Below, one piece after another: positions 1,407 to 3,698 of a DNA stretch of 64,000 bases. The DNA is from Escherichia phage dhaeg, in sequence record MN850609.1. The stretch is one strand, 5' to 3'. The position numbers and the translations under genes are program-made. How positions within the stretch are numbered: position 1 is the first letter of the stretch; every line of letters begins with the position of its first letter. The notes below the pieces were generated by a model. It made no database searches. It saw nothing but the letters and a program-made list of their open reading frames with translations, and had not been told where the DNA came from.

Positions 1407-1435
1407 GTATACATCTCCGGTAGGCATGATACTAT
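1407..1435 (+). promoter_or_regulatory. candidate sigma70-type early promoter (GTATAC-17-TACTAT)
   Basis: -35/-10-like hexamers with 17-nt spacing, directly upstream of a leader duplicated at 1874-1923. Confidence 0.4.
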
Positions 1436-1480
1436 AGACATGTACCAAATAATACGAAAACAAACCGGAGAATAAAATGA
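1431..1480 (+). repeat. about 50-bp leader repeat, copy 1
   Basis: 40 of its last 40 nt match 1884-1923 with one mismatch (tgtaccaaataatacgaaaacaaacYggagaataaaatga). Confidence 0.8.
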
Positions 1481-1845
1481 AAATCAATCTTAACTCATAT
1501 ATCAAATGTAAAGACCACGACGGTTATAAAGCTATTGAAACTAAAGAGATGCAATGGCGCTTGTACAAAGAACAATTTGAATTTGTAGGTTGTATGACTC
1601 CTGAAGGTCCTTCCGATGACTTCTCTTGGAAAATTTTGGTAACAAACTTTTTTACTGGTGATACCTACGAACTGAAAACTATCATAACCGGTAAGATTCG
1701 TTGTAAGACCTATGAAGATGAAGAAACCGGTTATTCTGAAGATGTTACATGGTATCAAAATGGTCGTATAACTGCAGATAACTTGATCGAAAAAATGAAA
1801 GCCAAAGGTGAATTAAATTTAGATAATTGGATTAAAGTTGCATAA
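1477..1845 (+). CDS. hypothetical early protein (122 aa)
   Basis: ORF with strong RBS (ggagaataaaATG) behind an early-type promoter; shares a CMTP motif at the same position with the next ORF. Confidence 0.6.
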   Translation: MKINLNSYIKCKDHDGYKAIETKEMQWRLYKEQFEFVGCMTPEGPSDDFSWKILVTNFFTGDTYELKTIITGKIRCKTYEDEETGYSEDVTWYQNGRITADNLIEKMKAKGELNLDNWIKVA

Positions 1846-1849
1846 AACG

Positions 1850-1890
1850 GTTTACTTTGGTACAGGTTGTGTTATTATAGACCTGTACCA
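1850..1890 (+). promoter_or_regulatory. early promoter inside a stem-loop (PeSL-like): GTTTAC-17-TATTAT with 9-bp stem tggtacagg/cctgtacca
   Basis: -35 gtttac and -10 tattat separated by 17 nt; the -10 lies in the loop of a perfect 9-bp inverted repeat. Confidence 0.5.
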
Positions 1891-2326: not shown

Positions 2327-2614
2327 ATGTTTATGACCACTTATTTCGATACTCGTAAAAATTTCTGTGAAGTTGTTTTCTCTAAGGCAGGTAAAGATGT
2401 TCCTGCTGACAAACAGCCTACTCGTGAATCCATTAAGGCCTATGCTGATGTGGTTTGTCCAGTAGAATTCCGTACAGTCAATGGTCGTGACACCCTAGCA
2501 ATCACTAAGCTCAGCCATGATATTAACATCGACCCTAGCGCTGCCCGCGAAGTCAATACTTCTGACATCTACGGTGGTAATGTTAAATCACATGGATTTC
2601 AGATGAGGTTCTAA
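2327..2614 (+). CDS. hypothetical protein (about 95 aa)
   Basis: Internal ATG 11 codons into the listed ORF, preceded by gaggaaaat SD; the listed upstream ATG lies in the hairpin and has no SD. Confidence 0.5.
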   Translation: MFMTTYFDTRKNFCEVVFSKAGKDVPADKQPTRESIKAYADVVCPVEFRTVNGRDTLAITKLSHDINIDPSAAREVNTSDIYGGNVKSHGFQMRF

Positions 2615-2808
2615 TGCAACTATTCTTATCACAAACCGTCCAGTTAAAAGGTGTAGGTATTCCTGGAATGATTTCTAAGGTCTTGCCTGGTTTTAAATTA
2701 GGTAATGCTACTATTAAAGAAGCCTACACCGTCCTGTGGGTCGATGGAACTGAAGACGTTCGTATGGGTTCTGAATTGTCTGTAATCAAATGTTTGAAGC
2801 GAGGATAA
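2614..2808 (+). CDS. hypothetical protein (64 aa)
   Basis: ORF with GAGG SD; start overlaps the upstream stop (TAATG). Confidence 0.5.
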   Translation: MQLFLSQTVQLKGVGIPGMISKVLPGFKLGNATIKEAYTVLWVDGTEDVRMGSELSVIKCLKRG

Positions 2809-2809
2809 T

Positions 2810-3025
2810 ATGGTTAAGAAACTGATTCAGAAATTGTTAGGTACGGAAATGGTTGAAGTGACTTATCGTGTGACTGATGTTTCTCCTCATACGGCAGACC
2901 ATTTAGAACCTTATATCATGACAATTAAAATGCCTAAACATGACGGTGGCTTATCCATTGAAGACCGACTACCTGGTTATGGTCATTGGGCTGATGTGGA
3001 GATTATCAGTGTCAAAGATATTTAA
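2810..3025 (+). CDS. small protein, tandem paralogue A (71 aa)
   Basis: Shares the frame KLxQKLxGxEMVEVTYRVxDxSP...IISVKD with the next ORF; gaggataat SD. Confidence 0.55.
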   Translation: MVKKLIQKLLGTEMVEVTYRVTDVSPHTADHLEPYIMTIKMPKHDGGLSIEDRLPGYGHWADVEIISVKDI

Positions 3026-3034
3026 GGAACCTTC

Positions 3035-3247
3035 ATGATTAATAAATTATTTAAAAAGCTGTTTGGTTTGGAAATGGTTGAAGTGACTTATCGTGTTATT
3101 GATTTATCACCGCCATATGCTTGCGATGAAGATGCTATTAAAACTGTTGTTATGCGAAAAACATATCGCGGGCGGTCAATTAAAGAAAGATTACCGGACC
3201 ATGGCATGTGGTATGCAACCAAGATTATAAGTGTCAAAGATGTCTGA
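3035..3247 (+). CDS. small protein, tandem paralogue B (70 aa)
   Basis: Paralogue of 2810..3025 with conserved N- and C-terminal segments. Confidence 0.55.
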   Translation: MINKLFKKLFGLEMVEVTYRVIDLSPPYACDEDAIKTVVMRKTYRGRSIKERLPDHGMWYATKIISVKDV

Positions 3248-3698
3248 GTTAGAGATAAGAAGTAACTTTCCGTGGCCATCATGCGCATTAAGTAACTTTG
3301 CTAAATGGCCTTTCGTTATGGATGGTATCCAATTCGGTGGGCTCGAAGGATTCCTCCAAGGATGTAAGGTGAAAAATGTTGAACAGCAAAGACGTATATT
3401 TAGGATGTCCGGGTTGGACGCGCAAAAAGCTGGACGAGCTTATGCTAGAGCTCAGGACCGTGGCACGTTGTTCTGGCTTGGAACCCCGTTTTCAAGATAT
3501 TCCGAAGCATGGAAAGAGCTTTACGAAAGTGCGTATTTTGAAGCAGCGCTCCAGAACAAAGGATTTCGCGATGCGTTACAAGCCACTAAAGGTAAGGTTT
3601 TAAAGCATTCAATGGCAAGCCACCTAAAAGAATGTGATACAATACTAACTGAAAAAGAGTTTATCGACATCCTAAACAAATTGAGAGATTTATTATGA
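3240..3698 (+). CDS. NADAR/YbiA-like (DUF1768-type) domain protein
   Basis: LSNFAKWPFVMDGIQF...EGFLQ and W-x3-YESAYFEAALQNKGFRDALQATKGKVLKHS resemble the remembered E. coli YbiA/NADAR core (FSNFAAWPIKVDGKTW...SEHYFQ); start overlaps the upstream stop. Confidence 0.55.
   Translation: MSELEIRSNFPWPSCALSNFAKWPFVMDGIQFGGLEGFLQGCKVKNVEQQRRIFRMSGLDAQKAGRAYARAQDRGTLFWLGTPFSRYSEAWKELYESAYFEAALQNKGFRDALQATKGKVLKHSMASHLKECDTILTEKEFIDILNKLRDLL

What the first reader, a model, noticed from the sequence alone, without database searches (positions are those of the whole stretch)
2810..3247. Tandem pair of ~70-aa paralogous early proteins
The two adjacent ORFs share N- and C-terminal frames (KLxQKLxGxEMVEVTYRV ... 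IISVKD) but differ in the middle, and the second overlaps the NADAR-like gene start. Duplicated small early genes are typical of host take-over or anti-defence factors.
Basis: seen in the sequence. Interest (0 to 1): 0.35.

Follow-up and report, generated by a model that had tools for sequence, protein, structure and literature searches.

The report
Tandem gp30.4 paralogs upstream of adfN
Two neighbouring 70-residue genes in this T4-like phage are real, long-diverged copies of gene 30.4, a small early gene of unknown function found only in T-even phages, and the second copy is translationally coupled to the anti-DarTG1 gene adfN; the arrangement is rare but already present in sequenced phages.

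Summary
ORFs 2810..3025 (71 aa) and 3035..3247 (70 aa) are paralogs: BLASTP gives 54% identity, E 3e-22. Both belong to the T4 gp30.4 family (phrog_2042; Pfam PF26911 Phage_T4_Y12I). The window is a JS98-like Dhakavirus, in the early rIII–30.9…30.1–ligase cluster.

About 720 phage records carry 30.4, and only 13 records (12 phages) carry the tandem pair. All pairs examined share one junction, so the arrangement arose once. Synonymous sites between the copies are saturated and omega is about 0.2, so both copies are old and under purifying selection.

The segment holding copy 1's 3' end, the junction and copy 2 is 96–100% identical across genera whose flanks are 73–85% identical. It therefore moves as a cassette. 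It can also collapse by recombination at a shared 27-nt block, as in phage 212.

AlphaFold predicts a helix plus a three-stranded sheet, with a hypervariable hairpin loop. No known fold or family matches.

The downstream neighbour, 30.3, is AdfN, a NADAR enzyme that counters DarTG1. Its start has no Shine-Dalgarno sequence and overlaps copy 2's stop. In published T4 Tn-seq data, 30.4 is the only gene besides adfN that is significantly depleted under DarTG1. This is probably a cis coupling effect. The function of the protein itself remains unknown.

The parts
1851..1878 (+). Early-promoter-like site (TTTACT-16-TATTAT with extended TG) upstream of 30.7. It is the likely start of the polycistronic transcript that covers 30.7 through ligase.
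   Evidence: consensus scan. Searches show the same 55-nt promoter/5'UTR element duplicated at 1427-1481 and 1870-1924. Promoter function is inferred, not tested.
2614..2808 (+). Gene 30.5 homolog (64 aa). Its stop abuts the copy 1 start (GAGGATAATATG).
   Evidence: phrog_1690; JS98 annotation.
2810..3025 (+). 30.4 copy 1 (71 aa, pI 5.7). It is a JS98-type allele (loop HTADHL) with a 3' end of the tandem type (ends ...VKDI, own TAA stop). It has its own SD, GAGGA.
2845..2871 (+). The 27-nt block identical in both copies (second instance at 3070-3096). It serves as a recombination joint.
   Evidence: The phage 212, P0002 and P0003 chimeras cross over here.
3026..3034 (+). The 9-nt junction spacer GGAACCTTC. 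Together with the preceding TAA it forms the SD-like AAGGAA for copy 2. It is conserved in all tandem loci examined.
3035..3247 (+). 30.4 copy 2 (70 aa, pI 9.4). It is the divergent, nearly invariant paralog (loop PYACD). Its stop overlaps the adfN start.
3070..3096 (+). Second instance of the identical 27-nt block.
3222..3248 (+). Conserved 3' block, a direct repeat of 3000-3026. It contains the ATGTCTGA stop/start overlap (3240-3247).
3240..3698 (+). Gene 30.3 = adfN (NADAR, anti-DarTG1), 152 aa. Its start has no Shine-Dalgarno sequence and is coupled to copy 2.
   Evidence: PF08010, E 8e-66; AdfN literature; anti-SD duplex -1.0 kcal/mol against -6 to -8 for neighbouring genes.

Best explanation
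SHOWN. The two ORFs are paralogous members of the T-even-restricted gp30.4 family (Pfam Phage_T4_Y12I, phrog_2042). They lie in the early rIII-30 accessory cluster of a JS98-like Dhakavirus. The tandem state arose once, as every tandem locus examined has the same junction. It is old, because synonymous sites between the copies are saturated, and both copies are kept by purifying selection (omega about 0.2). It now moves between Dhakavirus and Gaprivervirus genomes as a cassette of about 275 bp: the 3' end of copy 1, the junction and copy 2. Movement is by homologous recombination through the conserved gene ends. The window's copy 1 is itself a recombinant, with a JS98-type body and a tandem-type 3' end. 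The pair can collapse again to one chimeric gene by crossover in the shared 27-nt block.

INFERRED. Each protein is a small fold, an N-terminal helix packed on a three-stranded sheet, that displays a hypervariable beta1-beta2 hairpin loop. I read it as a protein-binding accessory factor of the counter-defence or host-interaction type, with the loop setting target specificity. On this reading a phage with two divergent copies (acidic copy 1, basic copy 2) covers two specificities.

In addition, whichever 30.4 copy lies last acts in cis as the translational feeder of adfN. The adfN start has no Shine-Dalgarno sequence and overlaps the 30.4 stop (ATGTCTGA). This coupling is the most likely reason why transposon insertions in T4 30.4 are depleted specifically under DarTG1.
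For: Paralogy and family.

Synteny with T4 and JS98 30.4.

Rarity: copy 1 type occurs in 721 phage records, and 13 records have two places.

Single origin: the junction GATATTTAAGGA(A/G)(C/T)CTTCATG is in every tandem locus where it was printed. All 11 tandem copy 1 genes end in VKDI, and all single-copy genes end in VKDV.

Age and selection: pS 0.66, dN/dS 0.23.

Cassette mobility: window 2972-3247 is 96-100% identical to Gaprivervirus TH54, whose 30.6, 30.5, 30.3 and 30.2 are 73-85% identical. Relative to CLB_P2 the window differs by an exact insertion bounded by the repeated 3' block.

Recombinant copy 1: 4/159 against 8/54 differences to JS98 (p 0.002), and 39/156 against 1/54 to TH54 (p 4e-5).

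Collapse chimeras: phage 212 and three metagenome contigs (p 8e-10).

Fold: pLDDT 87.7 and 85.7, same topology in both copies. Entropy peaks in loop columns 24-35. Between the WARNI and VHPQD alleles the middle segment has 9 nonsynonymous and 2 synonymous changes. Charge differs between the copies, pI 5.7 against 9.4.

Coupling: anti-SD duplex is -1.0 kcal/mol for adfN (T4: -0.7) against -5.4 to -7.9 for most cluster genes.

T4 Tn-seq: under DarTG1 exactly two genes are significant, 30.3 (log2FC -7.25) and 30.4 (-1.79, padj 0.014). 30.4 is neutral in the other four comparisons read: library control, RexAB, DarTG2, and one clinical-isolate sheet whose header was not read. The transposon lets transcription read through but stops translation in all frames.

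T2 carries a frameshifted 30.4 yet resists DarTG1 through AdfN.
Against: No direct evidence shows that gp30.4 binds anything. No homolog, domain or fold with a known function was found.

T4 30.4 is dispensable on E. coli K-12 (21 of 21 TA sites hit) and is broken in T2, so any benefit must be conditional.

The diversifying-selection signal rests on few substitutions. The loop alleles look like swapped cassettes rather than accumulated point changes.

The cis interpretation of the Tn-seq signal is not proven. Insertions upstream of the essential ligase gene are tolerated, although that gene has its own SD.
Confidence: 0.45

Rival explanations
1. gp30.4 proteins act in trans within the anti-DarTG1 module. 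They could be a cofactor or adaptor of AdfN, or a direct, allele-specific binder of DarT1. The hypervariable loop would track DarT variants, and the second copy would widen the range.
For: The 30.4-adfN stop/start overlap is conserved from T4 to Dhakavirus, a layout typical of co-produced subunits. T4 30.4 is the only gene besides adfN that is significant under DarTG1, and it is neutral under RexAB and DarTG2. AdfN cannot neutralise DarT1 outside T-even infection, which leaves room for a T-even-specific helper. gp30.4 occurs only in the E. coli T-even subset of the 1509 adfN-carrying phage records.
Against: T2 has a frameshifted 30.4 but is fully DarTG1-resistant through AdfN. Plasmid-borne AdfN alone rescues RB69, though RB69 keeps its own 30.4. 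Copy 2 is 100% identical between the window and TH54 while their AdfN proteins are only 87.5% identical, so there is no co-evolution. The weak effect (-1.79 against -7.25), together with an SD-less adfN start, is what loss of translational coupling would give.
Confidence: 0.15
2. The ORFs are only translational leaders for adfN. The peptides themselves have no function, and the duplication is neutral.
For: adfN has no SD and overlaps the upstream stop. RB49 has an unrelated 54-aa ORF in the same overlapping position. 30.4 is dispensable in T4 and broken in T2.
Against: dN/dS of about 0.2 at saturated dS, a confidently predicted conserved fold, and invariant residues across genera all point to selection on the protein. 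Copy 1 is no longer coupled to adfN, yet it stays intact with its own SD in all 11 tandem loci.
Confidence: 0.1
3. gp30.4 is a host RNA-polymerase-binding take-over factor of the T7 Gp2 / epsilon (YkzG) structural type.
For: For both models the best small-protein PDB match is YkzG (4njc_A): copy 2 at E 0.44, prob 0.82, TM 0.45-0.51; copy 1 at E 1.1, TM 0.32-0.36. The genes are early, small and dispensable.
Against: Neither match is significant. T7 Gp2 itself is not among the hits. Such small alpha/beta topologies recur by chance.
Confidence: 0.05

Closest known systems
T4 gp30.4 (Y12I_BPT4; Pfam PF26911 Phage_T4_Y12I; phrog_2042)
   Same: Same family, same position between 30.5 and 30.3, same ATGTCTGA overlap with 30.3/adfN, and about the same length (68 aa against 70-71 aa).
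   Different: T4 has one copy. tblastn identity of copy 1 to T4-type alleles is about 47%, and the T4-type representative P0035 is 28% identical to copy 2. The conserved 27-nt block of the Dhakavirus/Gaprivervirus/Mosigvirus alleles is not conserved in T4.
Tandem 30.4 pairs in deposited phages (WG01 ORF208/ORF207, ABTNLS3, fDHCT2, 04086, LHE83, PSD2002; TH54, TH57, TH44, PSD2001, CJ20, P896)
   Same: Same two-gene arrangement, same junction, and copy 2 at 94-100% amino-acid identity.
   Different: Their copy 1 carries the VHPQD or WARNI loop allele, whereas the window carries the JS98-type HTADHL allele. No record matches window 2700-3350 above 91.3% over its full length. Some records omit copy 2 from their annotation.
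AdfN (T4 gp30.3, NADAR anti-DarTG1 factor) operon context
   Same: The window's 30.3 is a PF08010 NADAR protein, 99.3% identical to JS98 30.3. It sits directly downstream of 30.4 and is coupled to it.
   Different: gp30.4 has no NADAR or macrodomain and no similarity to AdfA, AdfN or AdfM. Its role in DarTG1 evasion, if any, is untested beyond the Tn-seq signal.
RB49ORF215c (54-aa ORF overlapping the adfN start in Krischvirus RB49)
   Same: A small ORF whose end overlaps the adfN start, by 11 nt.
   Different: No detectable homology to gp30.4 (hhalign probability 0.4%).

Membership tests
gp30.4 / Pfam PF26911 Phage_T4_Y12I / phrog_2042 | Full-length match to the family profile | tested here: met
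   phrog_2042 matches at E 3.8e-35 (copy 1) and 2.9e-26 (copy 2) over residues 1-70/71. All 36 close homologs found carry precomputed PF26911. The local Pfam copy lacks this model.
gp30.4 / Pfam PF26911 Phage_T4_Y12I / phrog_2042 | Position between 30.5 and 30.3 in the rIII-30 early cluster of a T-even phage | tested here: met
   The gene order 30.8-30.7-30.6-30.5-[30.4 x2]-30.3-30.2-30.1-30 matches JS98 and T4.
gp30.4 / Pfam PF26911 Phage_T4_Y12I / phrog_2042 | Stop codon overlapping the 30.3/adfN start (ATGTCTGA) | tested here: met
   Met by copy 2 (3240-3247). Copy 1 instead ends in its own TAA, 9 nt before copy 2.
gp30.4 / Pfam PF26911 Phage_T4_Y12I / phrog_2042 | Invariant residues (E16, V17, Y19, D23, R53, G58, W60, S67, K69 in copy 1 numbering) and helix plus three-strand fold | tested here: met
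   Alignment A2. AF2 pLDDT 87.7 and 85.7 with the same topology. BFVD match to WG01 copy 2 at TM 0.72.
Known anti-defence proteins or defence-system components | Sequence match to a described family | tested here: not met
   PADLOC-DB gives 0 hits, and NCBIfam gives only noise at E>0.1. The PDB profile search gives nothing below E 0.35. These libraries do not hold all anti-defence families.
Anti-DarTG1 factor (functional class) | Loss of the gene sensitises the phage to DarTG1 | tested here: inconclusive
   Published T4 Tn-seq gives 30.4 a log2FC of -1.79 (padj 0.014) under DarTG1 only. A polar effect on the SD-less adfN cannot be separated from a protein effect. T2, with a broken 30.4, is resistant.
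T7 Gp2 / YkzG (epsilon) RNAP-binding fold | Significant structural superposition | tested here: not met
   Best match is 4njc_A at E 0.44-1.1, TM 0.32-0.51. No hit reaches E<=0.001.

The most novel reading that the evidence does not exclude
gp30.4 proteins are the missing T-even-specific trans-acting partners of the anti-DarTG1 enzyme AdfN, or direct allele-specific DarT1 binders. The hypervariable hairpin loop would match DarT/DarG variants in different hosts, and the laterally spreading second copy would extend a phage's anti-DarTG range. This would explain why AdfN works only during T-even infection and why 30.4 is the only other T4 gene hit under DarTG1.
Probability: 0.13. Interest if true: 0.65.

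Novelty: new member of a known kind. Interest (0 to 1): 0.33.

Why it matters
On its own this is an ordinary piece of T-even accessory-genome plasticity: a rare, already-sequenced tandem state of a catalogued gene family of unknown function.

It is still worth a note for three reasons.

1. It is a clean natural example of how small accessory genes are duplicated, shuffled between genera as sub-gene cassettes through conserved gene ends, and collapsed again.

2. It puts an uncharacterised, loop-hypervariable protein family directly in front of a proven counter-defence gene and couples it translationally to that gene. Published Tn-seq data contain an undiscussed DarTG1-specific signal for T4 30.4.

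3. A simple genetic test would decide whether this family is a new anti-defence component or only a translational feeder of adfN: a nonsense mutant of 30.4 with trans complementation, assayed on DarTG1.

Tried and rejected
Searches that gave nothing:
- The local Pfam-A has no model for either ORF.
- PADLOC and NCBIfam give nothing meaningful.
- A profile search of PDB sequences gives nothing below E 0.35.
- Foldseek against PDB with both models has no hit at E<=0.001. The recurring YkzG (4njc) match is not significant.
- Foldseek against BFVD returns only the family itself plus weak matches to Merlin and EcS1 small ORFs, which were not followed up.
- An exhaustive HMM search of 1.84 billion representatives finds only 3 family clusters and one spurious repeat protein, so no distant relatives are available to borrow a function from.
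- Literature searches for gp30.4, T4p207, NP_049818 and PF26911 give 0 papers.
- The RNA fold of the copy 2/adfN junction is no more stable than shuffles (z 0.34). Rfam has nothing.
- The RB49 ORF upstream of adfN is not homologous to gp30.4.

One attempt was blocked.

Ideas rejected:
- A recent in-place duplication. Synonymous sites are saturated and the sequence upstream of copy 2 is unrelated to that upstream of copy 1.
- An N-terminally extended 30.3 in place of copy 2, as annotated in CJ20 and PSD2001. In the window that frame is closed by a TAA at 3228-3230, and copy 2 is under purifying selection.

Full report
**Observation.** The window has two adjacent same-strand ORFs, 2810..3025 (71 aa) and 3035..3247 (70 aa). 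BLASTP of the two gives 54% identity over the full length with one gap, E 3e-22. Each matches phrog_2042 end to end, at E 3.8e-35 and 2.9e-26. At the DNA level the similarity is uneven. A 27-nt block (2845-2871 and 3070-3096) is identical. Codons 13-21 differ at 1/27 positions against 77/183 elsewhere (p 3e-5). The last ~20 nt are also shared, and the middle is only about 55-60% identical. The second ORF's TGA lies inside ATGTCTGA (3240-3247), which also holds the ATG of the next gene.

**Identity and context.** The surrounding DNA is 95-98% identical to the Dhakavirus phages JS98 and CLB_P2. The gene order matches the T4 early cluster rIII-30.9...30.1-30 (ligase). The ORFs are homologs of T4 gene 30.4. 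Close homologs carry the precomputed Pfam family PF26911, named Phage_T4_Y12I. My local Pfam copy lacks this model. The downstream gene is 30.3 (PF08010, E 8e-66). Published work renamed it adfN, a NADAR ADP-ribosylglycohydrolase that removes DarT1-made ADP-ribose from phage DNA and so defeats the DarTG1 defence system (PMC11257639; bioRxiv 10.1101/2025.11.20.689424). A T4-type early-promoter-like element with a conserved 5'UTR is duplicated in front of 30.8 and 30.7 (1427-1481 and 1870-1924). No comparable site lies between 30.7 and ligase, so the pair is probably expressed from an early polycistronic transcript. This is an inference from the consensus and from what is known of T4.

**Distribution.** An exhaustive profile search of 1.84 billion representative proteins finds only three family clusters, all T-even. 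tblastn finds the copy 1 type in 721 phage records, mostly Escherichia, Shigella and Yersinia T-evens. Only 13 of those records have two places. The copy 2 type at >90% identity occurs in just 14 records. Thirteen of these are the tandem records, representing 12 phages because WG01 is listed twice. The fourteenth is phage 212, which has copy 2 alone. Seven tandem records are labelled Dhakavirus or are Dhakavirus-like by flanking sequence, and six are labelled Gaprivervirus. No record matches the window's locus above 91.3% over its full length, so this allele combination is new to that collection.

**Evolution of the pair.** Every tandem locus where the junction was printed has the same sequence, GATATTTAAGGA(A/G)(C/T)CTTCATG. 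All 11 tandem copy 1 genes end in VKDI with their own TAA, while every single-copy gene ends in VKDV and overlaps adfN. The tandem state therefore arose once.

Copy 1 and copy 2 are saturated at synonymous sites (pS 0.66 overall, 0.82 in the middle) with dN/dS of 0.23. The split is old and both genes are under purifying selection. They are real coding genes.

Copy 2 is nearly invariant across tandem loci (at most 4 aa differences). Copy 1 comes in three loop alleles (HTADHL in the window, VHPQD, WARNI), and each of these also circulates as a single-copy gene.

The window's copy 1 is a recombinant:

| Compared with | Codons 1-54 | Codons 55-72 | Fisher p |
|---|---|---|---|
| JS98 30.4 | 4/159 differences | 8/54 differences | 0.002 |
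| TH54 copy 1 | 39/156 differences | 1/54 differences | 4e-5 |

The stretch 2972-3247 (copy 1's 3' end, the junction and copy 2) is 96-100% identical to Gaprivervirus TH54, whose flanking genes are only 73-85% identical. Relative to CLB_P2 the window differs by an exact insertion bounded by the repeated 3' block. So copy 2 travels between genera as a cassette of about 275 bp, using the conserved gene ends as recombination anchors.

The reverse event also exists. Phage 212 and three metagenome contigs carry one chimeric gene with a copy 1-type N-terminus (1-4/36 differences) and a copy 2 body (3/174 differences). The crossover lies in the 27-nt block (p 8e-10).

**Structure.** AlphaFold2 with the family alignment gives confident and concordant models for both copies (pLDDT 87.7 and 85.7). 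The fold is helix 2-10, strand 14-23, a long loop at 24-34, strand 35-42, a short helix, and strand 61-70. Alignment entropy peaks in the beta1-beta2 loop and in strand 2 (1.48 and 1.27 bits, against 0.30 for strand 1). Between the WARNI and VHPQD alleles the middle segment has 9 nonsynonymous and 2 synonymous changes. The two copies differ in charge, pI 5.7 against 9.4. No solved structure matches significantly. The top small-protein hit for both models is the RNAP epsilon subunit YkzG, at E 0.44-1.1 and TM 0.32-0.51, which I treat as noise. PDB sequence, PADLOC and NCBIfam searches are empty.

**Functional evidence from the literature.** No paper in the library mentions gp30.4. The supplementary tables of the T4 transposon-sequencing study (HIDEN-SEQ) do list it.
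- Gene 30.4 is non-essential on K-12, with 21 of 21 TA sites hit.
- It is neutral in the library control (log2FC +0.21), under RexAB (+0.12), under DarTG2 (-0.03), and in a further sheet that is probably a clinical isolate (+0.36).
- Under DarTG1 the sheet reports exactly two significant genes: 30.3/adfN (log2FC -7.25) and 30.4 (log2FC -1.79, p 1e-4, padj 0.014).

The authors discuss only adfN. The transposon has no terminator but ends with stop codons in all three frames. An insertion in 30.4 would therefore leave transcription of adfN intact but break translational coupling.

I tested how plausible that is. The adfN start has essentially no Shine-Dalgarno sequence, with an anti-SD duplex of -1.0 kcal/mol in the window and -0.7 in T4. 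Most genes of the cluster, including ligase, score -5.4 to -7.9. This also explains why insertions in 30.1, upstream of the essential ligase gene, are tolerated.

Phage T2 carries a frameshifted 30.4, and its second fragment still terminates 2 nt before the adfN ATG. T2 is nevertheless fully DarTG1-resistant through AdfN. RB49 has an unrelated 54-aa ORF overlapping its adfN start. Copy 2 is identical between the window and TH54 although their AdfN proteins are only 87.5% identical.

Together these points favour a cis (coupling) explanation of the Tn-seq signal over a required protein partnership. They do not exclude a modest trans contribution. The report that AdfN cannot detoxify DarT1 outside T-even infection leaves that door open.

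**Explanation.** The anatomy and history are shown. The function is inferred. The proteins are most likely small binders that present a hypervariable hairpin, of the counter-defence or host-interaction kind common in T-even accessory clusters. The last copy doubles as the translational feeder of adfN. I give this 0.45.

The rivals are:
- a trans role in the anti-DarTG1 module (0.15);
- a leader-only ORF with no protein function (0.10), which is contradicted by selection on the protein and by the intact, uncoupled copy 1;
- a Gp2/epsilon-like RNAP binder (0.05).

**Novelty and verdict.** The family is catalogued (Pfam, PHROG), and the tandem state exists in 12 deposited phages, in some of which copy 2 is not annotated. 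This is a new member of a known kind. What this analysis adds is the single origin, the cassette-like lateral spread and collapse, the hypervariable loop, the SD-less coupled adfN start, and the overlooked DarTG1-specific Tn-seq signal for T4 30.4. Interest is modest at 0.33. It would rise substantially if gp30.4 proved to act in trans against DarTG1.

Noticed in passing
window 1427-1481 and 1870-1924: A 55-nt direct repeat, 93% identical, lies in front of 30.8 and 30.7. It looks like a duplicated T4-type early promoter -10 region plus 5'UTR plus SD (GGAG). A terminator-like hairpin at 1359-1380 precedes the first copy.
   Followed up: partly
window 3219-3247 (adfN start) and 3674-3698 (30.2 start): adfN has essentially no Shine-Dalgarno sequence (anti-SD duplex -1.0 kcal/mol; T4 -0.7). 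30.2 has a weak one (-2.9). This suggests a translationally coupled train 30.4 -> 30.3 -> 30.2.
   Followed up: partly
window 3376-3603 (+): A 75-aa ORF lies in a different frame inside adfN. It corresponds to T4 30.3', which is annotated in T4, PP01 and VR7 as an internal out-of-frame product. Whether it is expressed or conserved beyond chance was not examined.
   Followed up: no
L008 (CJ20) 1501-1713; L020 (PSD2001) 1501-1713: These GenBank records annotate an N-terminally extended 30.3 (from 1679) and leave copy 2 unannotated. In many tandem phages the 30.3 frame stays open upstream through copy 2, giving a 193-aa ORF. In the window a TAA at 3228-3230 closes it.
   Followed up: yes
L025 (phage T2, MH751506) 1501-1705: T2 gene 30.4 is split by a frameshift into 30.4-A and 30.4-B. 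The second fragment ends 2 nt before the adfN ATG. T2 also lacks 30.5 and 30.8, and PP01 lacks 30.5.
   Followed up: partly
T4 HIDEN-SEQ supplementary table, DarTG1 sheet (bioRxiv 10.1101/2025.11.20.689424): Gene 30.5 shows log2FC -3.0 under DarTG1, but it is not significant because one jackpot site dominates the counts. tk.3 and 24.2 show similar jackpot artefacts.
   Followed up: no
L032 (RB49) 741-905: Krischvirus RB49 has an unrelated 54-aa ORF that overlaps the adfN start by 11 nt. Klebsiella phage RCIP0006 has an 83-nt gap upstream of adfN instead.
   Followed up: partly
window 1477-1845: The window's 30.8 is the 122-aa CLB_P2/VR7-type version, not the 110-aa JS98-type. Identity to JS98 breaks at about 1512-1845, another mosaic joint in the same cluster.
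   Followed up: no
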